From positions 472,762 through 536,761 of the forward strand of contig WJMO01000006.1 in the NCBI GenBank assembly GCA_014727915.1: DNA of 64,000 nt, in the 5' to 3' direction. The first letter of the stretch is position 1. Each line of letters opens with the position of its first letter. The DNA comes from Candidatus Altiarchaeales archaeon. Lineage in GTDB: Archaea > Altiarchaeota > Altiarchaeia > IMC4 > SCGC-AAA252-I15. The translations under genes and the position numbers were made by a program. A model generated the notes under the pieces. The model saw only the letters and a list, made by a program, of their open reading frames with translations. It had not been told where the DNA came from and did no database searches. Below are positions 15,052-37,759 of this stretch, in pieces.

Positions 15052-15212
15052 GAGGATACAATATATGGGACCCATATTATAATAAAAACAGGACAAAACC
15101 GGATTTCACAATAGTTTAAACAATTATATGAACTATTAAAAGGAAAACAGGTATAATTCAAACAAAGACAAGCCTTATATTGCCATCCTCCCTACTACTA
15201 TAAGCTGTTTCT

Positions 15213-15293
15213 GGGCCTGTAGCCTAGCGGATGCTGCTCACATGCGTTCGCGCAGACGAAACTGCAACAGCAGTCTAGCCTAAGGCGACAGCC
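15213..15293 (+). repeat. Partial direct copy of the tRNA-Arg 5' half (positions 1-20 and 21-32) interrupted by a 49-nt insertion carrying a UUCG hairpin
   Basis: GGGCCTGTAGCCTAGCGGAT ... AAGGCGACAGCC matches nt 1-32 of the downstream tRNA. The insert (15233-15281) contains TGCG-TTCG-CGCA and a GCTGCT/AGCAGT stem. A TATA-like cttatatt lies about 35 nt upstream. Confidence 0.5.
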
Positions 15294-15326
15294 CAAAATA
15301 GAAAACATAGAAGGAAGCACATTCAC

Positions 15327-15478
15327 GGGCCTGTAGCCTAGCGGATAAGGCGACAGCCTTCTACGAGCCCCTTTCTTTTAAAAAAAGAAAGGTGCTTCAC
15401 CCCCAAAGAAAAAAATAGGGTGGTGAGGAAGGGTTCGGGGATAGCTGTAGATCATGGGTTCGAATCCCATCAGGCCCA
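15327..15478 (+). tRNA. tRNA-Arg (anticodon TCT) with a 79-nt intron at the canonical 37/38 position (intron 15364-15442)
   Basis: Hand-folded cloverleaf: acceptor GGGCCTG/CAGGCCC, D-arm GCCT-AGCGGATA-AGGC, anticodon stem ACAGC/GCTGT with loop CTTCTA|A, 5-nt variable loop, T-arm ATGGG-TTCGAAT-CCCAT, discriminator A, no encoded CCA. The intron holds a perfect 9-bp hairpin CTTTCTTTT-aaa-AAAAGAAAG. Confidence 0.7.
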
Positions 15479-15490
15479 CAAGAATTTTTT

Positions 15491-16966
15491 ATGTTGGGGT
15501 TAAGGGGTTTTATTTCCATCATTTTAATCCCTAATATGCGCTTATGTTGTCTGATAGTCCTTATCCTCATTTTCTCAGGCTGTATGGGAGGATATGACAA
15601 AACAGAAGAATCAAAGCCAGACAATTATTGTGAAACCGATCGAGATTGCAGCCCTCTCGGATGTTGTTGTCCTAAAAAATGTACGGGTTCAGTATATGCC
15701 AGCCAGTACTATTATGAAAACTGTAAAGGGAAACCCTGTCCAGAAGTAGTATGTAACCCTGTTGTGACATGCACTTGTGAAAATAACATGTGTAAAACAC
15801 ACAAAGATAGTGTATTCAAAAAAACCACTTCATCAACTCAATCCACCACGACAACTTTGAAGATTGGGACTGATTATTCTGAACTAATCCACATGTATAC
15901 TGACAAATTCGACTCAAACAGTTCTATAATCAAATGCCAAAATGATGATGACTGTATCTTAGTCCCAAATATTGGTAGTTGTAATGCTGGTGGCATAAAT
16001 ATAGCCATCAATAAGGATTTCCAAGAGGGGTGGAACAAGCAACTAAATGAAGAACGTAGAGGGATGGTGTTTGCAGGAGTCATGTCGCAGCATTCATCAT
16101 GTTTCTCAAATCCAGTTTGTAACGATAATAAATGCACGACTGAGATTAACAATACAATGATTTGCAGTCAACAGGATATTCGTGGAAACTGTGAAAATCC
16201 TGCATATGCGAATAACTGGAAAAAGGAACTGGGTATACGATGTGAAGATCTTAATGCAATATGTCAGTGGGGGATAGGGAATATCAATGCATCAGACTTC
16301 ATAAATTGGGATGAGAACTTCGGGTCGTGGGGGGATGAATACGGGACATTCATCCAACTTAGAGATTTTAGCGGATATGAGTACGACCTAAACTCCTCGG
16401 TGGACGAAAAATTAAAGGTCTACGCATTACGTCGTGAGAAAAGCAGGAATATATCAAAGGAGTTCATAGCTTTCCTGAAGCAGTTGGATGTGAGTATAGA
16501 TGAGGATAGGAGTTTCGGGAAGATAATGGTTGTCGGAGGACGAAAAGATGACATGCAAAAGGTCATCTTCCACCCCTATGTCGAGTCATATTCCAGAGAT
16601 AACCCGGGATTCCCGGAGGATATTTTCACAGAAACTGAGCTGAAATATTGCATGACTGATGATGACTGCATAAGTATTGAAGCATATAGGAATGGATGTA
16701 CGGCCGGTGGGACATCAATACCCATGAATAAAAAATTCAAGGAGTATTGGACCGATAAGAGATTGTCAGATACTCTTTTTACAGGAACTACTGGGGTGCT
16801 ATCCTTCCATTGGTCCTGTTTTGCAATCCCAAAATGTCTGAACCATAGGTGTGCATTAGTCAATACAACGTGTTCAAGTCCTGAGGATTGTGACGGAGGA
16901 TACTACTACGAAAAGTTCAGTGAAGGAATAATATGCAAAGACAATAAATGTTATGGGGATATTTAG
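15491..16966 (+). CDS. Cys-rich secreted (lipo)protein with two internal roughly 70-aa repeats (CxxDDDC...AGG...NK.F.E.W...SCF..P.C module)
   Basis: Signal peptide with an FSGC lipobox-like motif. Paired segments CQNDDDCILVPNIGSCNAGGINIAINKDFQEGW... and CMTDDDCISIEAYRNGCTAGGTSIPMNKKFKEYW.... N- and C-terminal Cys knots. Low-GC codon usage. Confidence 0.5.
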   Translation: MLGLRGFISIILIPNMRLCCLIVLILIFSGCMGGYDKTEESKPDNYCETDRDCSPLGCCCPKKCTGSVYASQYYYENCKGKPCPEVVCNPVVTCTCENNMCKTHKDSVFKKTTSSTQSTTTTLKIGTDYSELIHMYTDKFDSNSSIIKCQNDDDCILVPNIGSCNAGGINIAINKDFQEGWNKQLNEERRGMVFAGVMSQHSSCFSNPVCNDNKCTTEINNTMICSQQDIRGNCENPAYANNWKKELGIRCEDLNAICQWGIGNINASDFINWDENFGSWGDEYGTFIQLRDFSGYEYDLNSSVDEKLKVYALRREKSRNISKEFIAFLKQLDVSIDEDRSFGKIMVVGGRKDDMQKVIFHPYVESYSRDNPGFPEDIFTETELKYCMTDDDCISIEAYRNGCTAGGTSIPMNKKFKEYWTDKRLSDTLFTGTTGVLSFHWSCFAIPKCLNHRCALVNTTCSSPEDCDGGYYYEKFSEGIICKDNKCYGDI

Positions 16967-17086
16967 GCTTCAAAAAAGGTTCTATTTTTGTCTAATAGTT
17001 GTTCCAGACTAACTTATAGTGACTATATATTGCAATAATCTATATTATAGATATCGAGAAAAATTATATATTGTAAAAGATATATT

Positions 17087-18256
17087 ATGAAAAGGAGTGA
17101 TTTTCCAGCCCCAAATGGCAGGTTTTCAAAGAATTCCGATGGAGACCTTACATTCATCCCAAACAGGATAATCCGGGATATTGAGGGACTATACTCTTCG
17201 GAGATAGTGAGCCTTCTTTCAAAGGCTGACAGGATGCTTGGTTCCCTGGACCGGTGTAGTCAAAGCGACCCGAACATTGACTTCCTCGTCGCGCCCTACA
17301 TACGGCTCGAGGCTGTCGCGAGCTCAAGAATCGAGGGGACTCAGACAACTTTAACGGACTACTACAAGCTGGAGGCAGAAAAGAAAGGGGAACACGACCC
17401 GGACTATATCGAGGTCAACAACTACATCAAAACGATGATGGCAGGCTTTGAGAGGGTCATTGGCGGACAAAAAATCGACCTCCCCTTCGTCAAATCACTT
17501 CATAAGACCCTTGTAGCGGGAAGCGAGCGCACAAAGGGGGTTCCCGGCCATGTCAGGACGAAACAGAACTGGATAGCCCCCATGAACTCGCCGATAGAGC
17601 TTGCGACATATGTCCCACCAGATCCAATTAAACTGGAGCCCCTGCTAAAGGATATGCAAGGATTCATCCTGAAAGACGATGACATCCCGCCGCTCATAAA
17701 GACGGCATTGATACACTATCAGTTCGAGGCGATACACCCGTTCGAAGACGGAAATGGGAGGGTCGGGAGAATCATCAACTCCCTCTACCTCGGCCAGGCA
17801 GGATGCCTCCACAGCCCGATCCTGTTTTTGAGCTTCTATTTCCAAAAGCACAGGGACGAATACTGGGCGAGGTTGTTGAGGACCAGCCAGCAAAGCGACT
17901 TCGACGGATGGCTTAGATTCTTTTTGAAGGGCATTATAGAGCAATCGCAAAGGTCTATAGAGCTTTCAAACAAGATAGAAGGGTTGCATACCAGCTATCA
18001 GGAACGTCTTGAGAAAAAGAGGGTCACAGCGACCACATTAAAGGCTTTGAGGCTGCTTTTCACAGGCAACCCATTCGTGTATATGACCGAGCTTGCAAGG
18101 GAGCTGGACGTCCATCTTCCGACGGCAAAGAAGGCGATAACACAGCTTGAGAAAGAAGGCATCCTGAAGCAATCAAAGGTCAAAAAGCCAGCAATCTACT
18201 TCGCCCCCGAGATAATAGATACATTACGGAAGGCTGAAAAGGAAATGCTCAAATAA
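17087..18256 (+). CDS. Fic/DOC family protein (probable AMPylator) with a C-terminal winged helix
   Basis: Canonical Fic motif HPFEDGNGRVGR (HxFx[DE]GNGRxxR). 389 aa. Confidence 0.8.
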   Translation: MKRSDFPAPNGRFSKNSDGDLTFIPNRIIRDIEGLYSSEIVSLLSKADRMLGSLDRCSQSDPNIDFLVAPYIRLEAVASSRIEGTQTTLTDYYKLEAEKKGEHDPDYIEVNNYIKTMMAGFERVIGGQKIDLPFVKSLHKTLVAGSERTKGVPGHVRTKQNWIAPMNSPIELATYVPPDPIKLEPLLKDMQGFILKDDDIPPLIKTALIHYQFEAIHPFEDGNGRVGRIINSLYLGQAGCLHSPILFLSFYFQKHRDEYWARLLRTSQQSDFDGWLRFFLKGIIEQSQRSIELSNKIEGLHTSYQERLEKKRVTATTLKALRLLFTGNPFVYMTELARELDVHLPTAKKAITQLEKEGILKQSKVKKPAIYFAPEIIDTLRKAEKEMLK

Positions 18257-18522
18257 CGCTCACAAGGACGCAAAAAAGGGAGTACGTACTGGTGGGGTGG
18301 TCAGGCATCAGGCCCGCATCAAATTAGATTAGACCAGGGGTTCGAACGCTCGGAAACCGAAGGTTTCCGGCGCGCCAAAATCCGCAGGCTTTTGAGCGTC
18401 CCATCAGGCCCGATACAGGATAATAATTGGGTGAGTGTTTGCTTGAGGCCGAAACACACTTTTTTTCCGTTGGAAAAAACCGACCCAGCTGGCGCAGGGA
18501 ATAAAGACCCGAGTCAGGTGTG

Positions 18523-19128
18523 CTAGAATGCTCTTGCCACAATAACCGAGGCAGCTGACAACAGAAGAGTTAGCACTGGCATGCAAACACACGCAGTATC
18601 GGCTGGTCTATCGGGAGAGGGAACAGTTGATGATGGTTTTCGGGCGGGGTATTTCGCTTCGTTTATGATTTCAAATGCTGCGGTTTTTGTCTCGTCCTTT
18701 TCCGGGTTTAATATGCTCACATCAAGTGTGTAGTAGACGCCATCAGAGTAGAAGTCGAAAAAACACTGTTCCTCGTCGGAGCCCGCCATTTCACATATGT
18801 AATATAGAGTGTGGCCAGAGTATGTGGCCTTTCCCACATTTCCCTGTTCATAGCCTTTTTTTAGGTCAGTCCATTCCGAGCTGCTCATATGTTGTTTCTC
18901 GAAGATGGCGACGATCCTATCGTCTGTTGAAGCATAGGATCTGCTGTTCAGGCTTTCCTCAACCATGGTCAGGTCTAATGCTGGCACATGGTCAGGGAAG
19001 GTTAGTTCGGCGACCGCCGGTGGTGAAAGGATGAGGAGTGCGAGGATGGCGAGATTGGAATGTTTCAGCATATAGAATGATTTGAGGAAGTGAATAAAAA
19101 ACCCAGATTCTGCCATCAACACCCACAA
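18523..19128 (-). CDS. Secreted protein with a C-terminal hydrophobic anchor
   Basis: Signal peptide (probable start at 19071, MLKHSNLAIL...), a C-terminal TM segment, and a basic tail. Confidence 0.35.
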   Translation of the reverse strand: MWVLMAESGFFIHFLKSFYMLKHSNLAILALLILSPPAVAELTFPDHVPALDLTMVEESLNSRSYASTDDRIVAIFEKQHMSSSEWTDLKKGYEQGNVGKATYSGHTLYYICEMAGSDEEQCFFDFYSDGVYYTLDVSILNPEKDETKTAAFEIINEAKYPARKPSSTVPSPDRPADTACVCMPVLTLLLSAASVIVARAF

Positions 19129-19182
19129 TACAGAAATCCCATTAAATATTTTTTTATATTGAATATTGCATTAGATAATGTC

Positions 19183-19620
19183 ATGAAAATAGGTTTAATC
19201 CTGGGTTTGGTGATGTTAGCCTCTGGGTGTCTCTGCTGCTGCAGTGGGGGATCTGACTATGGAGACTATGACTATGATGATTGGGATGCACCAACGGATT
19301 ATGCGGCAGCTACGGTAGCCTCTCCCAGTGGGGGCCCCAGGTTGGACTGCCTAGACGGGCATACACTCAATGACATCATGTGCTACAAGGCAGGGGGTGG
19401 GATTTCAACGGATGCCAGCCTCTGCAAGCAGATAGATGATCCGATTGGAGTTGCCGCATGCCTTGGTGGTGTGGCAGCAGTTAAAGACGATCCTAGCCTA
19501 TGCAGTCAAAGCAGGGGGGACTTGCATGATTTCTGCGTTGACGTATCCAATAGCAACTTCGCAGGAGAAACGGCAGGTAGCTTGGAGGAGAAATATCCCT
19601 TCCTGAAGCGGTGGGAGTAG
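19183..19620 (+). CDS. Cys-rich secreted lipoprotein with D-x-x-x-C repeats
   Basis: Start moved to MKIGLILGLVMLASGC (lipobox-like). A TATA-like tttttatatt sits about 30 nt upstream. Repeats of the form C..IDDP...AC / C.QSRGDLHDFC. Confidence 0.45.
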   Translation: MKIGLILGLVMLASGCLCCCSGGSDYGDYDYDDWDAPTDYAAATVASPSGGPRLDCLDGHTLNDIMCYKAGGGISTDASLCKQIDDPIGVAACLGGVAAVKDDPSLCSQSRGDLHDFCVDVSNSNFAGETAGSLEEKYPFLKRWE

Positions 19621-19903
19621 GGCGTTCATGGATATCCTGTCACCGGTATTTAACCTTTGTTTGCCTAAGTTCTTGTCATAATGGCGGATAGGATGTGGAC
19701 CTACCCTGAGTTGAGGTTTGTCTTCGTCAACCAGTTGAAGTACACACCCCAGGAGTTGGCCCTGCATGTCAATCGGGAGTTCCACGATGGGGATGACGTG
19801 AGGAGCGCCGTTGACATAGAGAATATCAAGAGGGGCAGGAACATATTCAACAAAGACCAGGGCTTCTGACCGCTTTTAATTCTGTTGTTTCTTATGAGTT
19901 ACG

Positions 19904-22261
19904 ATGAAATCCGCTGACTTGAAGTCTTCAGCCGCCGCTGTCTTCGCAGTGTCGATGATGGGCTATCTGATGACCTTGGCTCCCACCGTGTATGGGGGGG
20001 ACAGCGGGGACATGATAACAGCCTCGTATAATCTTGGCGTGGCACACCCCACAGGGTACCCCCTTTATATGCTGTTGGGCAAGGTGTTCTCGCTCATCCC
20101 GGTTGGGACGGTGGCCTACAGGTATAATCTGATGAGCGCGGTGTTCAGCGCTTTGGCTGCGGTTTTCATCTGCCTAACCACGATTTCTTTCACTAAGTCC
20201 AGGTTGGCGGGTGTGGGGTCTGGGTTGATGGTGGCCTTCTCCCACGCGATTTGGGACCAGGCCACTGTCGCGGAGGTCTACGCCTTGAACGGTTTCTTCG
20301 TTTCCCTGCTGATCTGGCTGGCCGTAAGGTTCAGGGAGAAGCGGGATAAGACTCTGCTTAGATACATCGCCTTCGCCTTTGGGCTGGGTTTGACAAACCA
20401 CATATCCCTGGTGTTTTACGCGCCCGCATTCGCGTACCTGTTGTATGAGGGCAATAGGAAGGCGTTTATGAAGATAGGAGCGGAGGTCAAGGCCTTCCTT
20501 GTGGCGCCGCTCCTCTTGTATCTATACATTCCATTGCGGGCTGGCAACAGGGTTTACAGCTGGGGTGACCCCAGGGGCGCGGCGGGTTTCATAAGGCATG
20601 TCACGGGGAGCATACACCGGCAGACCTACACTCTAACATTGAGCAAAGAGGGTGTTTTCGAGCGTTTCTTCGGTTTGTTGTATCATTATTTCAGGCAGTT
20701 CTCCCTTGCGGGTGCGCTTGTGTTGGCTGGCCTATACAACCACGGCGGCAAGAACAGGACATACCTCCGGTTCACTGGCCTTATGGTTGGCGCCGACCTC
20801 ATCTACGCCCTCTTCATAAACGATGTTTCGCTTCGGATCACCACATTCTGCATCCCCAGCATAATGGCCTTGGGCGTCTGGTCAGGTTATGGATTCCGGG
20901 ACGTCTTCAAAAGTTTCAAGAGGGGAAAGGACAATGCCTTTGAGGCGGTCGCGGTGGCGGTTGTAGTCCTGATAGTGTTCGCCTCCAACCATTACATAAG
21001 CGACCGGTCCGATAATCTCATAGCATACGATTATGCGATGAACATATTGAGGTCCGTGGACGAAGGGGGTGTTGTCTTCGCGGAGGGTGATAATACCGTG
21101 CTGCCTTTGAATTATCTTCTGCTTGTCGAGGGAGTTAGGCCGGATGTGACCTTGTACGAGCGCACGGGTTTCCTAAGCCACAGACTATACGGGAAAGACT
21201 TCATATTCCTAGATGAGGATGAGCACGGGGAAGCCCGGGACAGGGTCGAGTATGAGGTGGTCCAGGAGGGCAGGCCGGTATATTATACGACCAAATCCGA
21301 TGTTGACCTTCCAGGGTACGATCTGGAGCAGGCGGGTTTAGTGTATAAGGTCGTGGCAGAGGGTGAAGAAGGCCCCTCAGAGGATTATTGGAACCTATAC
21401 GACTACCGGGGAGTTTGGAACCAGACCACCTACGAGGACTTCATGACCAGGTACATAAAGGCGGCCTATTACCTTCGCCTTGCGGAATACCGTATGGGAG
21501 AGGACAAAGACGCCGCTTTGGAGTTGCTCAACGACGCCAAGAGGCTCCTCCCAGACAATGTGGAACTCCACTATGACATAGGCAACATACTACTGAGCAA
21601 AGGCGACTATAAGGGCGCGGTGGAGGAGTTCGGGAAGGTTTTAAAGGAAGACGCCGAGAATGTGAAGGCCTTGAACAACAGGGGCTATGCATATGCGATG
21701 ATGGGATACGGTGAAAGCGCCAAGGAGGATTATATCAAGGCTCTGAAGTTGGAGCCAGGATATCTTAAGGCGCGTTTCAACCTGGCGGGGGCGCTGATGG
21801 CAGAGGAGAGGTTCGGAGAGGCCAGCCAACAGTACAAGCTCATAGTCGCCGCTGACCCCGAGTACGCTAACGCTTACTTCAACATGGGAGTGAGCCTGTA
21901 CAGGACCGGCGACCACCAGGGCGCAGTGGATGCGTGGACCAGGTATCTGGATTTGAGCCCTGACAGCCCCAGGGCCGGGGAGATACTCGAGCAGATTGAG
22001 ATAATAGAGGACCAGTATGCTATGGAGCAGAACCTGCTAGAATGCTCCAACGACAGCGACTGCACAGTAACAGAATATCCGATAAACGCGTGCTGCATGC
22101 AAAGGAAGTGCAGGTGGAGGGCTATAAACAAGGAAGGGCTTGAGCTCCAGGAGAGATGGAGGGAAGATGAGTGCGGAGAGGAAATCAAGTGCATGGTGGA
22201 TGACTGCGGGGAGCCGGACCGGGAGGTACAGTGCGTCAAGTTCAAGTGCAAGCTAATATAG
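19904..22261 (+). CDS. GT-C-fold membrane glycosyltransferase-like domain (DUF2723/TMEM260-like) fused to TPR repeats and a C-terminal Cys-rich CxxDxDC module
   Basis: About 11 TM helices with first-loop motifs GGDSGD and HPTGYPLY. Residues about 520-690 are TPR-like (repeated AxxYxxxG, A.EL..A, alternating hydrophobics). The C-tail CSNDSDCTVTEYPINACCMQRKC...C..C matches the module seen in 15491-16966. Confidence 0.5.
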   Translation: MKSADLKSSAAAVFAVSMMGYLMTLAPTVYGGDSGDMITASYNLGVAHPTGYPLYMLLGKVFSLIPVGTVAYRYNLMSAVFSALAAVFICLTTISFTKSRLAGVGSGLMVAFSHAIWDQATVAEVYALNGFFVSLLIWLAVRFREKRDKTLLRYIAFAFGLGLTNHISLVFYAPAFAYLLYEGNRKAFMKIGAEVKAFLVAPLLLYLYIPLRAGNRVYSWGDPRGAAGFIRHVTGSIHRQTYTLTLSKEGVFERFFGLLYHYFRQFSLAGALVLAGLYNHGGKNRTYLRFTGLMVGADLIYALFINDVSLRITTFCIPSIMALGVWSGYGFRDVFKSFKRGKDNAFEAVAVAVVVLIVFASNHYISDRSDNLIAYDYAMNILRSVDEGGVVFAEGDNTVLPLNYLLLVEGVRPDVTLYERTGFLSHRLYGKDFIFLDEDEHGEARDRVEYEVVQEGRPVYYTTKSDVDLPGYDLEQAGLVYKVVAEGEEGPSEDYWNLYDYRGVWNQTTYEDFMTRYIKAAYYLRLAEYRMGEDKDAALELLNDAKRLLPDNVELHYDIGNILLSKGDYKGAVEEFGKVLKEDAENVKALNNRGYAYAMMGYGESAKEDYIKALKLEPGYLKARFNLAGALMAEERFGEASQQYKLIVAADPEYANAYFNMGVSLYRTGDHQGAVDAWTRYLDLSPDSPRAGEILEQIEIIEDQYAMEQNLLECSNDSDCTVTEYPINACCMQRKCRWRAINKEGLELQERWREDECGEEIKCMVDDCGEPDREVQCVKFKCKLI

Positions 22262-26453: not shown

Positions 26454-26753
26454 GTGAAGAAGCCTTCGCTGAGGATCTCAGACTCCGGCGTCATATTCGA
26501 GGTCAGGGTCACGCCGTCAGCAAGGGAAGAGGGTGTTTCCCTTGAGGAGGGTGTGATAAGGGTCAGGACACGCGCGCCGGCGGATAAGGGCAAGGCTAAC
26601 AAGGCCGTCGTCCAGCTTTTGAAGGAGTTCTTCGGCCCCTGCGAAATCGTGGGCGGGCAAAGGTCAAGGAAGAAGACGGTAAAAACTGGAAAACGCGATG
26701 AAGACGGCTTTTACGCCTGTTTAGAGGCTCTTGGACGGGGGCAGACGGTGTGA
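26454..26753 (+). CDS. DUF167 (YggU/UPF0235) family protein
   Basis: 99 aa. The pattern RV.P.A......E.G.I.V...AP...GKAN.A...L.K.F resembles the DUF167 profile. Confidence 0.45.
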   Translation: MKKPSLRISDSGVIFEVRVTPSAREEGVSLEEGVIRVRTRAPADKGKANKAVVQLLKEFFGPCEIVGGQRSRKKTVKTGKRDEDGFYACLEALGRGQTV

Positions 26754-26911: not shown

Positions 26912-28054
26912 GTGATAAGTATGGCTAAAGCACCAGCTGATACGGTAAAATACAACATATACGCAGACATAACCATCGACGGCGTCGTGGAGAAGCCGGA
27001 CGTGGTAGGAGCATTATTCGGGCAGTCCGAGGGTCTACTCGGGGAAGAATTGGAGCTGAGGGACCTGCAGAAGACGGGTAGGATAGGAAGGATAGAAGTC
27101 GACATAAAGACGAAGTCTGGGAAGAGCCAAGGCAAGATTCTAGTGCCCTCCAGCCTGGACATGGTCGAGACCTCGATCATAGCCGCCACTATAGAGATGG
27201 TGGACAGGGTCGGACCCTGCAATGCGAACATCAAGGTGACTAACGTCGTTGACGCGCGGACCAGCAAGAGGAAGTCCATGGTCGACAGGGCCAAGATAAT
27301 CCTTAAGAAGCTTATGCAGGATGAGATACCCGAGAGCATGGAGTTGGTGGATGAGGTCCGGAAGTCGGTGCAGTTATCGGAGATAACGACCTACAGGGGC
27401 TTGTCGGCTGGGCCGGCAGTGGAGGACAGTGACTCTGTGATATTGGTCGAGGGCCGGGCTGACGTCCTGAACCTGCTCAAATGCGGGATCAAGAACGCTG
27501 TGGCAATAGGCGGGACGAACATCCCCCGGGCGATCTCGGAGCTGAGCAAGAGCAAGACAAGCATAGCCTTCGTCGACGGGGACCGTGGCGGGGACATAAT
27601 ATTGAACGAGCTGCGGCAGGTGGCGGACATAGACTTCGTCGCCAAAGCACCGTCCGGGAAGGAAGTGGAGGACCTGGGCAAGAAGGAGGTCATCATGGCC
27701 TTGAGGAAGAAGGTCACCACAGACCAGGCCAAAAACGGCAGGGGCCGGAAGAACGGAGCGGCCGCGGACGGGGAGAGCCTTTTGCCCGAGCTGTCGAAGG
27801 TGAAGGGAAAGCTAAGCGCTCGACTCTACGGTGCGGATAAGAAGATGATAACCGAGATAGAGATCAAGGACCTGATAAGCACCCTGGGGAAGGTGCAGCC
27901 GGCGTATGTCGTGTTGGATGGGATAATAACCCAGCGTCTTGTGGACAGCGCACATGGCAGCGGGGTCAAGGTCTTGATCGGCGTGAACACTGCAGCCGAC
28001 ATAAAGAACAAGCATAACATAAGCTTGCTTACTGAGAAGGCTGCAGCCGGTTAG
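26912..28054 (+). CDS. dnaG: Archaeal DnaG-type primase (Toprim)
   Basis: Toprim motifs VILVEGRADVLNL and AFVDGDRGGD. SD-like GAGGTGAT upstream of the ATG. 380 aa. Confidence 0.8.
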   Translation: MISMAKAPADTVKYNIYADITIDGVVEKPDVVGALFGQSEGLLGEELELRDLQKTGRIGRIEVDIKTKSGKSQGKILVPSSLDMVETSIIAATIEMVDRVGPCNANIKVTNVVDARTSKRKSMVDRAKIILKKLMQDEIPESMELVDEVRKSVQLSEITTYRGLSAGPAVEDSDSVILVEGRADVLNLLKCGIKNAVAIGGTNIPRAISELSKSKTSIAFVDGDRGGDIILNELRQVADIDFVAKAPSGKEVEDLGKKEVIMALRKKVTTDQAKNGRGRKNGAAADGESLLPELSKVKGKLSARLYGADKKMITEIEIKDLISTLGKVQPAYVVLDGIITQRLVDSAHGSGVKVLIGVNTAADIKNKHNISLLTEKAAAG

Positions 28055-28148
28055 AGGAAAATCTGCTCCTAATGCGGTGTGCGCGGTTTTTAAGCGCACG
28101 CCCATCCTCGCTTATTTTAACCCGTGGCCGTATTGTCTATACGGTAAC

Positions 28149-29615
28149 ATGATATTGGATGATATAGAGTCTACTGCTGACGTGGTTGTGCCCAGCGACC
28201 CGATAGCCCGGGTCATAGGCCAGGATAACGCCATCGAGAAGATACATGTTGCCATACGGCAGAGGAGGAACCTGTTGCTCGTAGGGCCGCCGGGTGTGGG
28301 AAAGAGCATGCTCGCTCAGGCGTTGGCCAAGCATCTGACCCCTCCCCAGCAGCAGATAAGCGTATTGCACAATCCCAAGGCCCCAAACAGGCCTGTCGTC
28401 GAGGTCATGCGGAAGGACGAGATAAGCAGCAGGAGCCAGAAGGAGGGGTTGGCTACGGGGCGTGTCGTAAGCCCCATGGAAGTCCCTTCCTTCGTTGCTG
28501 AACGGCTTGGGTTCAGGTGTGGGAGCTGCGGCTCATTGAGCGGGGTGGAGTTCCTAACCTGCCCCCGCTGCGGGTCCAACAAGTACAGCAGGATGGTCAA
28601 GAGCAGGCAGGAGAACCCTGTGAACAAGATGCTCACTGACGTGTTCGAAGTCGGCCCTGTTAAGCCTGAGAAGGAGGTGCAGACGTCTAGGATAGGATAC
28701 GGGGGTTCGGAAGAGGTCGTGGTATACCAGAGGACCAGCGAGGGGAAGGTGCGGGTCCTGGACCAGAAGGCTTTGGAGGAGATAAGGCAGTTGAACGAGA
28801 GGGATAAGCGCCATGTCATAGTCCCGTTGGAGCGGAAGAACTTCGTGCACATGAGCGGGGCTACTGAGACGGAGCTGTTGGGGGATGTCCGCCACGACCC
28901 CTACGGCAGCCACCCGGAGATCGGAACACCCGCATATCTAAGGGTCGTGGCGGGCGCTATACACGAAGCCCATGAGGGGGTCCTGTTCATAGATGAACTG
29001 CCCCACCTGGAGCACCTGCAGAACTTCATCTTGACCGCCATGCAGGAGAAGAAGTTCCCAATAACGGGCAGGAACCCCCAGAGCGCGGGGGCTTCCGTGA
29101 AAGTCAAGGACGTGCCCTGCGACTTCCTTTTCGTCGGAGCCTGCAACATAGTGGACGTGTCCAAGATCCTTCCGCCGCTGAGGTCGCGCATCATAGGTAA
29201 CGGTTATGAGATTCTCTTGGAGACTACCATGCCTGACACACCAGAGAACAGGGATAGGATACTGCAGTTTGTGGCGCAGGAGATAGCCACTGACGGCAGG
29301 ATACCTCACGCTTCCCCGGAGGTTGTTAAAGCCATCATCGAGGAGGCTAAGGTTCGCGCTCAGGGGGTTGACAACGCTAAGAACTCGCTGACCTTGAGGC
29401 TCAGGGACCTGGGGGGTGTCGTCCGGATGGCGGGGGACCTGGCGGTGTTGGAGGATAGCGAGTACATTGAGTATCGGCATGTTGAGCGGAGCCTTAAGGA
29501 GTCCAAGTCAATCGAACACCAGCTTCAGGAGAGGTATGGGAGCGTCTGGAGCGGTTTGGAGAAGGACAAGTCCATAGTCTTGGACCATGATTCCGCGGAC
29601 AGGAGCTACGGGTGA
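28149..29615 (+). CDS. Lon-family AAA+ ATPase lacking a recognisable S16 protease domain, with a Zn-ribbon insertion
   Basis: LonB-like N-terminus VIGQDNAIEKIHVAIRQRRNLLLVGPPGVGKSML, then CGSCGS...CPRCGS (4 Cys) where LonB carries its TM insert, then Walker B/sensor (GVLFIDEL). The C-terminal 150 aa has no Ser-Lys dyad motif. Start placed at MILDDIES. Confidence 0.55.
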   Translation: MILDDIESTADVVVPSDPIARVIGQDNAIEKIHVAIRQRRNLLLVGPPGVGKSMLAQALAKHLTPPQQQISVLHNPKAPNRPVVEVMRKDEISSRSQKEGLATGRVVSPMEVPSFVAERLGFRCGSCGSLSGVEFLTCPRCGSNKYSRMVKSRQENPVNKMLTDVFEVGPVKPEKEVQTSRIGYGGSEEVVVYQRTSEGKVRVLDQKALEEIRQLNERDKRHVIVPLERKNFVHMSGATETELLGDVRHDPYGSHPEIGTPAYLRVVAGAIHEAHEGVLFIDELPHLEHLQNFILTAMQEKKFPITGRNPQSAGASVKVKDVPCDFLFVGACNIVDVSKILPPLRSRIIGNGYEILLETTMPDTPENRDRILQFVAQEIATDGRIPHASPEVVKAIIEEAKVRAQGVDNAKNSLTLRLRDLGGVVRMAGDLAVLEDSEYIEYRHVERSLKESKSIEHQLQERYGSVWSGLEKDKSIVLDHDSADRSYG

Positions 29616-30976
29616 CTTACGTGAGCGCTGAGGGCAACCGCAGAATATTGCTCGTATACCCCCCGTATGAGAAGCCATTGATGCGGCAGGGACTCCATTA
29701 CACCTCCATACCCTTGGGCGTGGGGTATTTAGCATCTGTGTTGGAGGCGTCAGGGTTTGAAGTATCGGTGGTAGACTGCAACATCAGAGAATCCTCCCCG
29801 GAGGGGATGGCAGAGTCCATAGGCGAATTAAAGCCGGATATCGTCGGTTTGACCATTACGAGCCCGGGTCTGAGATACGCCTATAAGCTAATATCCGAAC
29901 TCAGGGAGGGGGGGCTCACTTCCACTATTCGCGTGGCTGCTGGTGGCCCGCATGTAACGGCAGATCCCGGGGCTTCGACCTGCCTTGGGGCTGACTTGTA
30001 CTTCACGGGAGAGTCGGAATACGCGTTCAGAGACTACTGTGTTAGCAGGAGGGAAAACGCAGGGAGAAACAACATCATAGAGTCTGGTTTGATAGGGGAC
30101 TTGGACTGTCTCCCATACCCCGCCCGGCACCTCTTCAACGGGGGGAGTTACAGGTTCACTCCGGTGGCCGCCTCAAGGGGCTGCCCCTTCAACTGCGGCT
30201 ACTGCGGCATATCAGGGACACAGTACCGGAAGAGGAGTATTGCGAATGTCAGGGGCGAGATCGAGCATCTCGCCTCCTTCAATACGAGGTCTGTTGACTT
30301 CACAGACGACATATTCACATTGGACCGGCCCTACGCGAGGGGGGTTGCGGAGGTGATGGGCGAGTATGGGATGGGATGGTCATGCACTACCCGGGCCGAC
30401 CTAGTGGACGGCGGGATACTGGAGCATCTGGCGGATAATGAATGCCGGCATATAAGCTTCGGTGTTGAAACAGGAGTCGAGCGGATAAGGTATAGGATGG
30501 GGAAGAAAGTGCCGGACAGCAGGTACCAGAATGCGTTCAAATCCTGCAGGGATGCGGGGATCAGAACAAGGGCTTATGCTATGCTAGGCTTTCCGGGCGA
30601 AACATTGGAGGACGTTCATAGAACCTTCGATTTCGTGAACGGTTTGGGGGCTGATGAGGTCCTGTATTCGCCCACGATAATCTACCCAAACACGTGGTTG
30701 ATGAAAGCGGCTGTTGAAGAGGGAAAGACAGGTTCGGACGCTTGGGTTAGGTACATGCGAGGGGAGGGTGGAATACCATACTATCTCCCGGAAGGCTTGA
30801 GTCTCGAAGAAGTTAACGCGTTAATCTACGAGGAGGGCAAGCGGTTCTACCTGAATCCAAAGCGGATATTGGCCAGGATGAGGGATGCGCAATCATTGGA
30901 TGACATCGCAGACTCGTTCAAGGCCCTGGCAGTATGGATGGTGGGGGCCATTAATAAACAAACCAGGACAAAATAG
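29612..30976 (+). CDS. B12-binding-domain radical SAM protein (class B)
   Basis: N-terminal Rossmann-like B12-binding region (ILLVYPPYE...VSVVDCN) and a CPFNCGYC CxxxCxxC cluster. Its ATG overlaps the upstream gene's stop. Confidence 0.7.
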   Translation: MTYVSAEGNRRILLVYPPYEKPLMRQGLHYTSIPLGVGYLASVLEASGFEVSVVDCNIRESSPEGMAESIGELKPDIVGLTITSPGLRYAYKLISELREGGLTSTIRVAAGGPHVTADPGASTCLGADLYFTGESEYAFRDYCVSRRENAGRNNIIESGLIGDLDCLPYPARHLFNGGSYRFTPVAASRGCPFNCGYCGISGTQYRKRSIANVRGEIEHLASFNTRSVDFTDDIFTLDRPYARGVAEVMGEYGMGWSCTTRADLVDGGILEHLADNECRHISFGVETGVERIRYRMGKKVPDSRYQNAFKSCRDAGIRTRAYAMLGFPGETLEDVHRTFDFVNGLGADEVLYSPTIIYPNTWLMKAAVEEGKTGSDAWVRYMRGEGGIPYYLPEGLSLEEVNALIYEEGKRFYLNPKRILARMRDAQSLDDIADSFKALAVWMVGAINKQTRTK

Positions 30977-31095
30977 AAGATAGAGGCGGGTAGCGGACCA
31001 CCACAGGCTCCGGTCGTTAGGGCATGAAAGGCGATAACGCCCCCGGGTCCGGGAGCTTGGAAAAAGAGAAAATCCAGACCGTCGGAGTGCAGACA

Positions 31096-31905
31096 ATGAC
31101 AAGATTCGGGTTGTTGGGGTGCGGCGCTATGGGTTCGGCCGTCGCCCAGGCCTTCGTTTCCGGGGAGATACCAAGGACACTGTCCTGCGTGTACGACGTA
31201 AGGGCAGAAGCTGCTGAAGAGCTCGCCCAGCGGTTCAAGGACCCGCCGAGGATATGCGAGTCCATCGGAGAGCTTATTGAAAACAGTGACTTCATAATAG
31301 AGGCCGCCAGCCAGGAAGCGGTCAGAGAGCATATGCCCGCGGCGTTGAAGGCGGAGAGGGACGTTCTGATAATGAGCGTCGGGGCCCTGCTGGACGATGA
31401 TGTGAGGGATAAGGTATACTCAGCTTCTAAGGAGAGCTCAGCCAGCATATACCTTCCAAGCGGAGCCCTCGCAGGCGTCGACGGTATGCTGTCTGGCGCG
31501 GTTGTGGGTGTTGATGCAGTGACACTGACAACCACCAAACCACCAGGGGGTTTGAGGGGAGTTGCATATCTAAAGCAGAGAGGAGTGGATGTCGAGCGAC
31601 TGGCAGAGCCTACTGTTGTCTTCGAGGGGTCGGCTGTGGAGGCGGCGCGCCTGTTCCCGAAGAACATAAACGTGTCTGCTGTAGCGTCGCTCGCGTCGGG
31701 GAGAACAGCAAATGTGAGGATAGTATGCGACCCAGACGCCGAGCGGAACACCCATGAGATATGTGCAACTGGGCCGTTCGGGGAGGTCACCGCCAAAACG
31801 ACAAACCTCCCTTCGCCTGACAACCCGAAGACATCATACCTGGCAGCATTGTCCGTCATAGCAACTCTCAAGAAGATTACAGGGAACATAAAGATAGGAA
31901 ACTAA
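31096..31905 (+). CDS. nadX: L-aspartate dehydrogenase (NAD biosynthesis)
   Basis: N-terminus FGLLGCGAMGSAVA (NAD(P)-binding) and an aspartate-dehydrogenase-like core. Start chosen at MTRFGLLG. Confidence 0.55.
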   Translation: MTRFGLLGCGAMGSAVAQAFVSGEIPRTLSCVYDVRAEAAEELAQRFKDPPRICESIGELIENSDFIIEAASQEAVREHMPAALKAERDVLIMSVGALLDDDVRDKVYSASKESSASIYLPSGALAGVDGMLSGAVVGVDAVTLTTTKPPGGLRGVAYLKQRGVDVERLAEPTVVFEGSAVEAARLFPKNINVSAVASLASGRTANVRIVCDPDAERNTHEICATGPFGEVTAKTTNLPSPDNPKTSYLAALSVIATLKKITGNIKIGN

Positions 31906-37177: not shown

Positions 37178-37759
37178 ATGAGAAAGCGCAAGAGGAAAGG
37201 ACTGGTTCACGTGTACACAGGTGAGGGTAAGGGAAAGACCAGCGCGTCCGTTGGTTTGGCCACCCGCGCACTGGGGCATGGGCTGAAGGTGTACATGATA
37301 CAGTTCCTCAAGGGCGGAGGGCATTCCGGGGAATACCTCGCCTCAAAGGAGTTCCTACCGAACTTCACCATCAAACAGTTCGGGAAACCATGTCCCTACA
37401 GCGAGGAGATGAAAAAGGGGACGATGGAGTGCGGCAACTGCAAGGACTGCTTCCTAAGCCGGCGTGAAGAGCGGGAGAAAGTCAGCGAGGGGTTGGAGCT
37501 GGCTGAGAAGATAGTGAAGTCTGGGAAATACGATGTTGTGATATTGGACGAGATAAACAACGCGGTAAGCAGGAAGCTAACTTCGGTTTCGAAGGTGGTG
37601 AAGCTGATAAGGGGGCGTAAGTCCAATGTCGAGCTCATACTAACTGGCCGGCACGCCCCCAAGGACGTCATAGACGATGCGGACTACGTCACAGAGATGA
37701 AGCGAATAAAACACCCTTTCATGAAGGGTGTTAGGGTGCGGCATGGGATAGACTACTGA
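37178..37759 (+). CDS. Cob(I)alamin adenosyltransferase (CobA/CobO/BtuR family)
   Basis: P-loop VYTGEGKGKTSASVGLATRALGHG...QFLKGG, with a CGNCKDC insertion. Start moved to the internal ATG at 37178, just after the nrdJ stop. Confidence 0.7.
   Translation: MRKRKRKGLVHVYTGEGKGKTSASVGLATRALGHGLKVYMIQFLKGGGHSGEYLASKEFLPNFTIKQFGKPCPYSEEMKKGTMECGNCKDCFLSRREEREKVSEGLELAEKIVKSGKYDVVILDEINNAVSRKLTSVSKVVKLIRGRKSNVELILTGRHAPKDVIDDADYVTEMKRIKHPFMKGVRVRHGIDY

What the first reader, a model, noticed from the sequence alone, without database searches (positions are those of the whole stretch)
28149..30976. Protease-less Lon-like AAA+ ATPase with a Zn-ribbon insertion, translationally coupled to a B12-binding radical SAM enzyme
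The ATPase has an unmistakable Lon N-terminal AAA signature. Where archaeal LonB carries its membrane anchor, this protein carries a 4-Cys ribbon, and no Ser-Lys protease domain follows. Its stop overlaps the start of a class-B (B12-binding) radical SAM gene (ATGA at 29612-29615), which suggests co-expression and possibly a chaperone/maturase-plus-radical-SAM pair. The adenosylcobalamin-related genes nearby (CobA-like 37178-37759, NrdJ) show the organism handles corrinoids.
Basis: partly seen in the sequence, partly recalled or inferred. Interest (0 to 1): 0.6.

Follow-up and report, generated by a model that had tools for sequence, protein, structure and literature searches.

The report
Protease-less Lon ATPase partnered with DnaG
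The ATPase is a real, soluble, protease-less relative of the archaeal Lon protease, but across archaea its steady gene neighbour is DnaG rather than the radical SAM gene, and it ends in a conserved tail resembling the one that docks other ATPases onto the proteasome.

Summary
Both genes exist as described, in a Candidatus Altiarchaeales MAG. The ATPase (28149-29615) is LonB-like, has no protease domain and no membrane helices, and carries an invariant CxxC-x10-CxxC zinc ribbon where LonB has its membrane anchor. The downstream gene is an unclassified B12-binding radical SAM enzyme. The junction reads GTGA, not ATGA, and homologs favour a start 5 nt after the ATPase stop codon.

The proposed ATPase/radical-SAM functional pair is not supported. 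An rSAM gene follows the ATPase in 1 of 64 assessable species-level loci, and only within one Altiarchaeota sub-clade where the whole gene block is syntenic.

The conserved partner is archaeal DnaG, directly upstream on the same strand: Methanobacteria 9/9, Thermoplasmatota 40/41, some Altiarchaeota including this window.

The family is already catalogued but apparently unstudied (Swiss-Prot "Putative lon protease homolog", e.g. T. acidophilum Q9HLX6). It keeps all ATPase catalytic residues. Its disordered C-terminal tail ends in [Gly/Ser]-Tyr-x in 236 of 239 members, which fits the published HbYX proteasome-docking definition.

Best reading: a soluble LonB-derived protein translocase functionally tied to DnaG, possibly docking on the 20S proteasome. 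The proteasome step is inferred, not shown.

The parts
26912..28054 (+). Archaeal DnaG (Toprim protein; exosome-cap subunit / bacterial-type primase homolog), the conserved upstream partner of the ATPase
   Evidence: NF003108 'DNA primase DnaG' scores 470.8 bits against a cutoff of 300. Pfam finds Toprim_4. A DnaG homolog lies directly upstream on the same strand in 51 of the 69 loci that have enough upstream sequence to assess.
28055..28148 (+). DnaG-ATPase intergenic region with two hairpins and a TATA-like TTATTTTAA box
   Evidence: RNA MFE is -35.1 kcal/mol with z = -3.07. Relatives L003 and L091 have a GC hairpin followed by TATTTTAAC about 29 nt before the ATG. An own promoter for the ATPase is an inference.
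28149..29615 (+). Protease-less LonB-like AAA+ ATPase, 488 aa (family of Swiss-Prot 'Putative lon protease homolog' Q9HLX6 / P58275)
   Evidence: Start at ATG 28149 agrees with homolog N-termini and with the NCBI protein P0001 (100% identity and coverage).
28284..28307 (+). Walker A motif GPPGVGKS (aa 46-53)
   Evidence: G46, P48, G49, G51, K52 and S53 are invariant in 45 sequences.
28407..28838 (+). Insertion domain (aa ~87-230) at the site of LonB's membrane anchor; soluble and specific to this family
28518..28571 (+). Four-Cys zinc ribbon, CGSC-x10-CPRC (C124, C127, C138, C141)
   Evidence: All four Cys are invariant in 45 sequences. The motif is present in 237 of 239 family proteins. Only weak, sub-threshold Pfam Zn-ribbon hits are found. 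Metal binding is inferred.
28980..28997 (+). Walker B motif VLFIDE (aa 278-283)
   Evidence: D282 and E283 are invariant.
29553..29612 (+). Disordered C-terminal tail (aa 469-488) ending in S-Y-G, an HbYX-like [Gly/Ser]-Tyr-x motif
   Evidence: pLDDT is below 50 for residues 469-488. Y487 is invariant. The penultimate residue is Y or F in 236 of 239 proteins, and the residue before it is G or S in 216 of 239. HbYX definition from PMC3493965.
29621..30976 (+). Class-B (B12-binding) radical SAM enzyme of no characterised subfamily; start at GTG 29621 (favoured) or GTG 29612
   Evidence: PF02310 and PF04055 hits. The best NCBIfam hit is HpnJ at 114 bits against a cutoff of 578. CPFNCGYC lies at aa 191-198 counted from 29612.
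31024..31905 (+). L-aspartate dehydrogenase (NadX), the gene that stays with the rSAM when the ATPase is absent
   Evidence: NF009830 scores 303 bits (cutoff 267) and TIGR03855 scores 241.6 bits (cutoff 206.55). The rSAM-AspDH pair has a 4-nt overlap in L083 and L085.

Best explanation
The two genes in the finding are neighbours by lineage-specific synteny, not a functional module.

The ATPase belongs to an old, widespread archaeal family of soluble, protease-less paralogs of the membrane protease LonB. It keeps a complete AAA+ motor and the LonB aromatic pore-loop residue. A family-specific zinc-ribbon domain, which would sit on the substrate-entry face of the ring, replaces the membrane anchor. 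Where LonB continues into its protease domain, this protein ends in a ~20-residue flexible tail with a conserved [Gly/Ser]-Tyr-x carboxy terminus.

Its evolutionarily stable partner is DnaG, encoded immediately upstream.

Most likely mechanism (inferred):
- It forms a hexameric ATP-driven protein translocase or remodeller.
- It acts on or with DnaG-containing complexes (the DnaG/Csl4 cap of the RNA exosome, or DnaG as a primase), using the zinc-ribbon collar for recognition.
- It uses its C-terminal tails to dock on a separate partner ring, the best candidate being the 20S proteasome, which would replace the protease domain it lost.

The radical SAM gene is an unrelated, unclassified class-B enzyme. 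It lies between the ATPase and aspartate dehydrogenase genes in one Altiarchaeota sub-clade only.

What is shown: family membership, domain anatomy, motif conservation, DnaG synteny, and lack of rSAM synteny. What is inferred: hexamer formation, protein translocation, zinc binding, a functional link to DnaG, and proteasome docking.
For: LonB relationship and loss of the protease:
- establish the LonB-type AAA+ module and the missing protease domain.
- None of 240 family proteins is longer than 522 aa.

Competent motor:
- K52, D282/E283, N333, R345/R347 and R417/R419 are invariant in 45 sequences.
- GDVRHDP is followed by Y in 212 proteins and F in 8. This aligns with the GDVRHDPF of TonLonB.

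Soluble zinc-ribbon insertion specific to this family.

Tail:
- It is disordered in the AF2 model.
- It ends in Y/F-x in 236 of 239 proteins.
- In GTDB loci the motif is present in Methanobacteria 9/9, Thermoplasmatota 42/43 and Altiarchaeota 3/3, but in Micrarchaeota 0/17.
- It fits the HbYX assignment rule used for archaeal AAA proteins: small or hydrophobic at -3, F/Y at -2 (PMC3493965).
- Only about 0.93% of archaeal proteins carry an HbYX end (PMC11475706).
- Non-hydrophobic -3 residues are tolerated in the GQYL tails of Mpa and Bpa.

DnaG synteny:
- DnaG is directly upstream on the same strand in Methanobacteria 9/9, Thermoplasmatota 40/41, Altiarchaeota 1/3 plus the window, L090 and L091, and Micrarchaeota 1/15.
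- Gaps range from -4 to 214 nt, and seven loci have gaps of 5 nt or less.
- No other neighbour family is shared by more than about 15 loci.

rSAM is incidental.

Precedent for an exosome/proteasome gene linkage in archaea: proteasome subunit genes lie in the exosome neighbourhood (PMC2588523).
Against: - There is no experimental or structural evidence here for any physical interaction with DnaG, the exosome or the proteasome.
- The -3 residue is Gly or Ser rather than a classical hydrophobic residue.
- The family is LonB-type AAA+, not the classical AAA clade to which all proven proteasomal ATPases belong.
- Micrarchaeota members lack both the tail motif and the DnaG adjacency, so neither feature is essential to the core ATPase.
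- In this window and its close relatives a hairpin and a TATA-like box separate DnaG from the ATPase. Co-transcription is therefore not assured here.
- Conserved adjacency can also reflect shared expression needs rather than interaction ('genomic hitchhiking', PMC2588523).
Confidence: 0.5

Rival explanations
1. One reading: the ATPase is a dedicated chaperone or maturase for the adjacent B12-binding radical SAM enzyme, and the two are co-translated as a two-gene module.
For: The two genes are tightly spaced (-4 or +5 nt) on the same strand, with an AGGAG 6 nt before the GTG at 29612. The pair recurs in L003, L083 and L091. Matching contig lengths suggest about 6 more Altiarchaeota contigs carry it.
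Against: The pair occurs in only 1 of 64 assessable species-level loci and is absent from Methanobacteria, Thermoplasmatota, Micrarchaeota and other Altiarchaeota (L004, L005, L089, L090). The rSAM lineage exists without the ATPase (L085, L087), and distant homologs sit in glycosylation clusters. Across the same contigs the ATPase is far more conserved (66-79% identity) than the rSAM (39-57%).
Confidence: 0.04
2. Nucleic-acid motor: the ATPase is a hexameric RNA or DNA translocase/helicase working with DnaG, analogous to the bacterial DnaB-DnaG pair or to a helicase feeding the exosome. The zinc ribbon would bind nucleic acid.
For: The ATPase shows operon-level linkage to DnaG. Zinc ribbons are common nucleic-acid binders. 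After Lon, the next Pfam and fold matches are MCM, RuvB, RuvBL1/2 and ComM helicases and Mg-chelatase-type modules. RuvBL1/2 also carry a domain inserted between Walker A and B (established knowledge). From established knowledge, archaeal DnaG lacks the zinc-binding and helicase-binding domains of bacterial DnaG.
Against: The closest relative by a wide margin is a protein-translocating protease (about 35% identity, E 1e-83, against 1e-7 for helicases). The LonB aromatic pore-loop residue is conserved. A conserved C-terminal docking-type tail is not a feature of helicases. The insertion domain has no detectable OB or helicase-type fold.
Confidence: 0.2
3. Stand-alone remodeller: a soluble AAA+ unfoldase or disaggregase with no peptidase partner. 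The C-terminal Tyr motif would serve another role, such as autoinhibition, inter-subunit contacts or binding DnaG itself.
For: The motor and pore-loop residues are intact. The -3 residue is Gly or Ser, not a classical Hb residue. Micrarchaeota members function without the motif. Tail and DnaG adjacency co-vary across clades, which is compatible with the tail binding DnaG.
Against: The tail emerges exactly where Lon's protease domain is attached, so it faces the exit side of the ring (inference from Lon architecture, 3k1j). Penultimate-Tyr C-termini on AAA+ rings are so far a hallmark of proteasome docking (PMC3493965, PMC8755798).
Confidence: 0.25

Closest known systems
Archaeal LonB protease (e.g. 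Thermococcus onnurineus LonB, PDB 3K1J/4ZPX; MEROPS S16.005)
   Same: The AAA+ module is B-type: about 35% identity, E 1.3e-83, Foldseek E 5e-37. It has the same GDVRHDP-aromatic segment, the same lid, and a large insertion at the same site between Walker A and B.
   Different: It has no Ser-Lys protease domain and no transmembrane fragment. The insertion is a soluble Zn-ribbon domain. The protein ends in a flexible [G/S]-Y-x tail. It scores below the TIGR00764 cutoff (362.7 against 516.6).
LonC (Meiothermus taiwanensis MtaLonC, PDB 4FW9/8K8V)
   Same: It is a Lon relative that has departed from the canonical ATPase-plus-protease design, and it is the second-best structural match (E ~1e-14).
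   Different: The departure runs the opposite way. LonC keeps the protease and has a degenerate AAA-like domain without ATP-powered unfolding (PMC3391209 title). This family keeps an intact ATPase and has lost the protease.
Archaeal proteasomal ATPases PAN, Cdc48/VAT and AMA (HbYX network; Forouzan et al. 2012, PMC3493965)
   Same: It is expected to form a ring-shaped AAA+ unfoldase (inferred). Its disordered C-terminal tail has Tyr/Phe at the penultimate position and a small residue at -3, which meets that paper's HbYX rule. The family is present in Thermoplasmata, which lack PAN.
   Different: It belongs to a different AAA+ clade (LonB-type, not classical AAA). It has a single ATPase ring with a Zn-ribbon insertion instead of an N-terminal OB/coiled-coil or double-psi barrel domain. 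No binding data exist. The family was outside the scope of that survey.
Mycobacterial Mpa/ARC and Bpa (GQYL tail)
   Same: They are a precedent for a proteasome-docking tail with an essential penultimate Tyr and a non-hydrophobic residue at -3 (PMC8755798, PMC4254994).
   Different: They are bacterial and Pup-dependent, with a different fold and domain set.
Characterised class-B radical SAM enzymes (HpnJ, PhpK, BchE, Mmp10/MJ0865, TIGR04072 lipid rSAM)
   Same: The window's rSAM shares their N-terminal B12-binding domain plus CxxxCxxC radical SAM core.
   Different: It scores far below every curated cutoff (best is HpnJ at 114 against 578), so no substrate can be assigned.

Membership tests
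LonB protease (MEROPS S16.005; definition in PMC9569914) | B-type AAA+ ATPase module | tested here: met
   TIGR00764 scores 362.7 bits over profile positions up to 402. 3k1j matches at E 1.3e-83. Foldseek gives E 5e-37.
LonB protease (MEROPS S16.005; definition in PMC9569914) | Membrane-anchoring domain with a transmembrane fragment inserted between Walker A and B | tested here: not met
   An insertion is present at the same site (aa ~87-230), but its Kyte-Doolittle 19-residue maximum is 0.84. It contains a 4-Cys ribbon instead of a TM fragment.
LonB protease (MEROPS S16.005; definition in PMC9569914) | C-terminal B-type protease domain with a Ser-Lys dyad | tested here: not met
   The protein ends about 25 aa after the lid. 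TIGR00764 positions 403-608 are unmatched. No Lon_C hit appears at E<=10. No family member exceeds 522 aa.
LonB protease (MEROPS S16.005; definition in PMC9569914) | Score at or above the curated equivalog cutoff (TIGR00764, 516.6 bits) | tested here: not met
   362.7 bits.
Protease-less LonB paralogs ('Putative lon protease homolog' Q9HLX6/P58275; NCBI 'Lon protease family protein') | Length of about 450-520 aa, LonB-type AAA+ module, no protease domain | tested here: met
   The window protein is 488 aa. It is 48% identical over its full length to the Thermoplasma ortholog locus L053, whose ORF is 98% identical to Q9HLX6.
Protease-less LonB paralogs ('Putative lon protease homolog' Q9HLX6/P58275; NCBI 'Lon protease family protein') | CxxC-x9/10-CxxC in the Walker A/B insertion | tested here: met
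   CGSC-x10-CPRC in the window. Present in 237 of 239 family members.
Protease-less LonB paralogs ('Putative lon protease homolog' Q9HLX6/P58275; NCBI 'Lon protease family protein') | C-terminal [small]-[Y/F]-x tail | tested here: met
   The window protein ends in S-Y-G. The motif is present in 236 of 239 family members.
Protease-less LonB paralogs ('Putative lon protease homolog' Q9HLX6/P58275; NCBI 'Lon protease family protein') | DnaG gene immediately upstream on the same strand | tested here: met
   DnaG occupies 26912-28054 and the ATPase starts at 28149.
HbYX-dependent proteasomal ATPases (PAN/Cdc48/AMA) | C-terminal HbYX motif (small or hydrophobic at -3, Phe/Tyr at -2; PMC3493965) | tested here: met
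   S-Y-G in the window; family statistics; rule quoted.
HbYX-dependent proteasomal ATPases (PAN/Cdc48/AMA) | Classical AAA clade ATPase domain | tested here: not met
   The best matches are LonB, Mg-chelatase and MCM-type modules. PAN (NF003069) scores only 18.9 bits.
HbYX-dependent proteasomal ATPases (PAN/Cdc48/AMA) | Physical binding to the 20S alpha ring with gate opening and stimulated degradation | not testable with these tools
   This needs biochemistry or a multimer structure prediction. The T. acidophilum 20S pull-down list (PMC3493965, supplemental Table 1) is not held.
Class-B (B12-binding) radical SAM enzymes | N-terminal B12-binding domain plus a radical SAM core with CxxxCxxC | tested here: met
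   PF02310 scores 65.7 bits, PF04055 scores 84.5 bits, and CPFNCGYC is present.
Class-B (B12-binding) radical SAM enzymes | Membership of a characterised subfamily (HpnJ, PhpK, BchE, Mmp10, TIGR04072 lipid rSAM and others) | tested here: not met
   All scores are far below the curated cutoffs.
Proposed conserved ATPase + radical SAM two-gene module | Co-localisation of the two families across unrelated genomes | tested here: not met
   Found in 1 of 64 assessable loci, and only in an Altiarchaeota sub-clade with whole-block synteny.

The most novel reading that the evidence does not exclude
A LonB-derived AAA+ ring that lost its own protease domain has become an additional cap of the archaeal 20S proteasome. 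It would dock through six [Gly/Ser]-Tyr-x tails. Its operon partnership with DnaG would physically or functionally couple the RNA exosome cap (or DnaG primase) to proteasomal protein degradation. This would be a second, independent genomic link between RNA decay and proteolysis in archaea. It would also be a second candidate proteasomal ATPase in Thermoplasma, where only Cdc48/VAT is known.
Probability: 0.25. Interest if true: 0.8.

Novelty: new variant of a known kind. Interest (0 to 1): 0.55.

Why it matters
As written, the finding (an ATPase/radical-SAM module) would have sent follow-up work in the wrong direction.

The re-analysis turns up a widespread and apparently uncharacterised archaeal AAA+ family with three sharply conserved features that I found in no paper of the held library:
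- a zinc-ribbon domain replacing LonB's membrane anchor;
- a proteasome-activator-like C-terminal Tyr motif;
- operon linkage to DnaG.

Archaeal DnaG's role (primase or exosome subunit) is a long-standing open question. The full set of proteasomal ATPases in Thermoplasma, the classic 20S model organism, is also unsettled. Orthologs exist in cultured species (T. acidophilum Q9HLX6, T. volcanium P58275, P. torridus Q6L1E9, Methanobacterium and Methanothermobacter). Both questions therefore become directly testable with standard assays.

Tried and rejected
- **rSAM as the conserved partner:** rejected by the 80-locus survey and by contexts read from the rSAM side.
- **Hidden protease domain or TM anchor:** rejected.
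- **A second, canonical LonB in the window:** none found by tblastn with the ATPase. The rest of the genome was not available.
- **The insertion domain in other protein architectures:** phmmer against 1.84 billion representatives found only this family and fragments of it.
- **Other conserved neighbours:** unbiased ORF clustering found none. 'Family 2' was an antisense-ORF artefact over DnaG in high-GC genomes. Micrarchaeota flanks show no pattern.
- **Literature on a DnaG/Lon-like link or on protease-less LonB:** nothing relevant in the held library. PACE12, reported next to DnaG in Picrophilus, is a GPN-loop GTPase and not this ATPase.
- **T. acidophilum 20S pull-down list:** the supplement is not held.
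- **From memory only, unverified:** the T. acidophilum gene may be the 'Lon2' (Ta0098) of the genome paper. A search for that tag gave nothing relevant.


Full report
**1. What is in the sequence**

The window comes from a Candidatus Altiarchaeales MAG: the ATPase is 100% identical to an NCBI protein on a 536-kb contig. The gene content is archaeal, with PurP, archaeal DnaG, deoxyhypusine synthase and an intron-containing tRNA.

Two same-strand ORFs lie at the stated coordinates. The ATPase runs from ATG 28149 to the TGA at 29613-29615 (488 aa). The radical SAM ORF ends at 30976.

The junction reads GGGTGAC. Two in-frame GTG starts are possible:
- The GTG at 29612 overlaps the stop codon by 4 nt and has an AGGAG 6 nt upstream.
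- The GTG at 29621 is the start NCBI calls (451-aa P0121). It is also the position homologous to the starts in relatives L003 and L083, where the rSAM begins 5-6 nt after the ATPase stop, behind a GAGGGG(G) Shine-Dalgarno.

The genes are tightly packed either way, but overlap-type translational coupling is not established.

**2. The ATPase: anatomy**

It is LonB-like:
- NCBIfam TIGR00764 (LonB) scores 362.7 bits. The match covers only profile positions up to 402 of 608, and the score is below the 516.6-bit cutoff.
- The best solved relatives are T. onnurineus LonB 3k1j and 4zpx (E 1.3e-83). They align to residues 7-86 and 208-463.
- The AF2 model has mean pLDDT 79.6. Its top Foldseek matches are TonLonB (E 5e-37), then LonC, then MCM, RuvB(L) and ComM.

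It has no protease domain:
- The chain ends about 25 residues after the lid.
- A permissive Pfam scan (E<=10) of the last 138 residues finds only weak lid-domain hits, MCM_lid and LonB_AAA-LID.
- None of 240 family proteins exceeds 522 aa.

It has no transmembrane helix: the Kyte-Doolittle 19-residue maximum is 1.45, in a core beta strand, and 0.84 within the insertion.

The motor is intact. Walker A K52, Walker B D282/E283, N333, R345/R347 and R417/R419 are invariant across 45 sequences. The segment GDVRHDP-Y/F is conserved (Y in 212, F in 8) and aligns with GDVRHDPF of TonLonB.

A ~140-residue insertion lies between Walker A and B. This is the site where true LonB carries its membrane-anchoring domain of more than 100 aa (definition in PMC9569914). 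Here the insertion contains CGSC-x10-CPRC:
- All four Cys are invariant, and the motif is present in 237 of 239 family proteins.
- Modelled alone, the insertion has pLDDT 76.4. It consists of a zinc ribbon, a three-stranded sheet and helices.
- A full phmmer scan of 1.84 billion representatives finds it only in this family. There were 28 hits, all 539 aa or shorter, with the domain at residues ~90-230.

**3.

After the last lid helix comes a ~20-residue segment of variable length and sequence. It is disordered in the model (pLDDT below 50 for residues 469-488).

The last three residues are nevertheless conserved:
- The penultimate residue is Tyr in 235 and Phe in 1 of 239 proteins.
- The residue before it is Gly in 112 and Ser in 104.
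- The last residue is free.

In the GTDB loci the motif (small or hydrophobic, then Y/F, then any residue) is present in Methanobacteria 9/9, Thermoplasmatota 42/43 (Methanomassiliicoccales use Met-Phe-x) and Altiarchaeota 3/3. It is present in 0 of 17 Micrarchaeota, which end in Glu-[Thr/Ile/Val]-[Ala/Gly].

This matches the rule used by Forouzan et al. [quoted passage not shown] That survey covered classical AAA proteins only. It concluded that Thermoplasmata have a single proteasomal ATPase, Cdc48.

HbYX ends occur in about 0.93% of archaeal proteins (PMC11475706). A non-hydrophobic -3 residue has precedent in the GQYL tails of Mpa and Bpa.

In Lon the protease domain follows the lid directly. 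A tail at this point would therefore leave the exit face of the ring, which is the geometry needed to dock on a separate peptidase. This last point is an inference from the 3k1j architecture.

**4. Which neighbour is conserved?**

I fetched 80 species-level loci of the family from GTDB genomes. They span Altiarchaeota, Methanobacteria, Thermoplasmatota (including Thermoplasma, Methanomassiliicoccales and Methanomethylophilaceae) and Micrarchaeota. I then searched them with the window's neighbouring proteins.

*The rSAM.* A homolog lies downstream in 1 of 64 assessable loci. That locus is L003, the nearest relative (ATPase 72% identical), and its whole gene block is syntenic with the window.

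Metagenome contigs show the same picture:
- L083 and L091 (ATPase 67-72% identical) keep the order ATPase-rSAM-AspDH-(DHS)-NifU-NrdJ.
- L090 (59%) keeps YggU-DnaG-ATPase but has no rSAM.
- L089 (63%) has neither DnaG nor the rSAM adjacent.

From the rSAM side:
- L085 has rSAM-AspDH without the ATPase.
- L087 has the rSAM beside isoprenoid genes.
- Homologs at about 30% identity in Nanoarchaeia and Bathyarchaeia sit among glycosyltransferases, methyltransferases and further class-B rSAMs.

*DnaG.* By contrast, the upstream gene 26912-28054 is archaeal DnaG (NF003108, 470.8 bits against a cutoff of 300). A DnaG homolog lies immediately upstream on the same strand as follows:

| Lineage | DnaG directly upstream |
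|---|---|
| Methanobacteria | 9/9 |
| Thermoplasmatota | 40/41 |
| Altiarchaeota (GTDB loci) | 1/3, plus the window, L090 and L091 |
| Unplaced archaeon (L020) | 0/1 |
| Micrarchaeota | 1/15 |

Intergenic distances run from -4 to 214 nt, and seven loci have gaps of 5 nt or less. Unbiased clustering of all flanking ORFs found no other family shared by more than about 15 loci.

The stable partner of this ATPase is therefore DnaG, across at least three phylum-level lineages. The two clade-level features (DnaG adjacency and the Tyr tail) are both missing from Micrarchaeota.

**5. Is it known?**

The family is catalogued:
- T. acidophilum Q9HLX6 and T. volcanium P58275 are Swiss-Prot 'Putative lon protease homolog'.
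- P. torridus Q6L1E9 is 'Protease La homolog type 2'.
- NCBI uses 'Lon protease family protein', 'ATP-binding protein' or 'peptidase'.

The window's gene is thus a new member of an existing, mis-named family. It cannot be a peptidase.

In the held library I found no paper that characterises the family or mentions the zinc ribbon, the tail or the DnaG linkage. Two archaeal replication-gene context studies list other DnaG neighbours (PolB3, RPA, PACE12, which is a GPN-loop GTPase) but not this ATPase. This is absence from the library, not proof of absence. Subscription papers such as the Thermoplasma genome and chaperone papers are not held.

**6. How it most likely works**

Shown:
- It is a soluble LonB paralog with a complete motor.
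- It has a family-specific Zn-ribbon insertion.
- It has a conserved C-terminal Tyr motif.
- It has conserved DnaG synteny.

Inferred:
- It forms a LonB-like hexamer that threads polypeptides.
- The six insertion domains form a collar on the entry face and select clients or an adaptor.
- DnaG, or a DnaG-containing complex, is the client or partner. DnaG is the archaea-specific cap subunit of the RNA exosome, bound via Csl4 (PMC3672285 and PMC4227792, listed).
- The tails dock the ring on a partner, most plausibly the 20S proteasome.

A genomic exosome-proteasome connection already exists: proteasome subunit genes lie in the archaeal exosome neighbourhood (PMC2588523). An AAA ATPase-nuclease association has also been reported in an exosome-less archaeon (PMC10470531, abstract).

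My confidence by step:
- Family assignment and the 'rSAM incidental, DnaG conserved' conclusion: about 0.9.
- Some functional link to DnaG: about 0.6.
- Protein rather than nucleic-acid translocation: about 0.7.
- Proteasome docking: about 0.25-0.3.

They are listed separately with their tests.

**7. The radical SAM gene**

It is a bona fide class-B enzyme (PF02310, PF04055 and CPFNCGYC). It lies far below every curated subfamily cutoff: HpnJ 114 against 578, PhpK 99 against 600, TIGR04072 89 against 360, Mmp10-type 64 against 360. No substrate can be assigned.

Its most persistent neighbour is aspartate dehydrogenase, NadX. However, NadX also occurs near the ATPase without the rSAM, so even that link is weak.

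**8. Verdict**

The anatomy is right, but the ATGA overlap is wrong.
The domain reading is right, but the functional pairing is not.
- The interesting object is the ATPase family itself together with DnaG. It is a variant of Lon with a plausible, testable and apparently unreported connection to the proteasome and the exosome.

Noticed in passing
window 29621-31905; L083 1663-3899; L085 5001-7108; L091 5470-7634: The class-B rSAM is followed by aspartate dehydrogenase (NadX) in every locus of its Altiarchaeota lineage that I read, with a 4-nt overlap in L083 and L085. In L085 this holds without the ATPase, and NadC (QRPTase) lies about 400 nt upstream on the opposite strand. This could hint at a link to NAD/quinolinate metabolism. 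However, NadX also occurs without the rSAM in L089 and L090.
   Followed up: partly
window 28055-28148; L003 ~6886-7000; L091 ~3930-4000: The DnaG-ATPase spacer folds into two hairpins (MFE -35.1 kcal/mol, z -3.07) and carries a TATA-like TTATTTTAA. Relatives have a GC hairpin followed by TATTTTAAC about 29 nt before the ATG. In Altiarchaeota the ATPase may therefore have its own promoter despite the conserved adjacency.
   Followed up: partly
L030-L082 (Micrarchaeota loci, e.g. L052, L056, L058, L066, L082): Micrarchaeota members of the ATPase family keep the zinc ribbon but replace the [G/S]-Y-x end with Glu-[Thr/Ile/Val]-[Ala/Gly]. They also lack DnaG adjacency (1 of 15). The two features co-vary across clades.
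   Followed up: partly
window 15327-15478 (+): Rfam finds a tRNA (59.6 bits) spanning 152 nt, whereas ARAGORN reports no tRNA in the window. This is presumably an intron-containing archaeal tRNA.
   Followed up: no
window ~14000-20000: G+C drops to 0.44-0.49 here, against 0.52-0.57 in the flanks. The tRNA lies in this stretch. It could be an integrated element or an island.
   Followed up: no
window 26454-26753 with 26912-28054; L003, L090, L091: A YggU/DUF167 gene sits directly upstream of DnaG in all four Altiarchaeota loci that keep DnaG-ATPase. The local conserved string is therefore YggU-DnaG-ATPase.
   Followed up: no
L086 and L088 (Nanoarchaeia, Bathyarchaeia): Distant homologs of the rSAM (about 30% identity) occur in clusters with two or three class-B rSAM genes plus glycosyltransferases, an epimerase and SAM methyltransferases. 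This suggests sugar or polysaccharide modification for that branch.
   Followed up: no
cluster of P0113 (Methanobacterium petrolearium, contig of 2,515,507 bp): In one complete-genome assembly the ATPase ortholog is annotated as three fragments (130, 126 and 335 aa, one of them named 'sigma 54-interacting transcriptional regulator'). Another assembly of the same species has an intact 503-aa gene. This is probably an assembly frameshift or a pseudogene.
   Followed up: no
window 37178-37759 (+): The CobA-like ORF scores just below the curated cutoffs (TIGR00708 160.3 against 167.75; NF004637 168.6 against 185). The longest ORF starts earlier, at 37070, and overlaps the end of NrdJ.
   Followed up: partly
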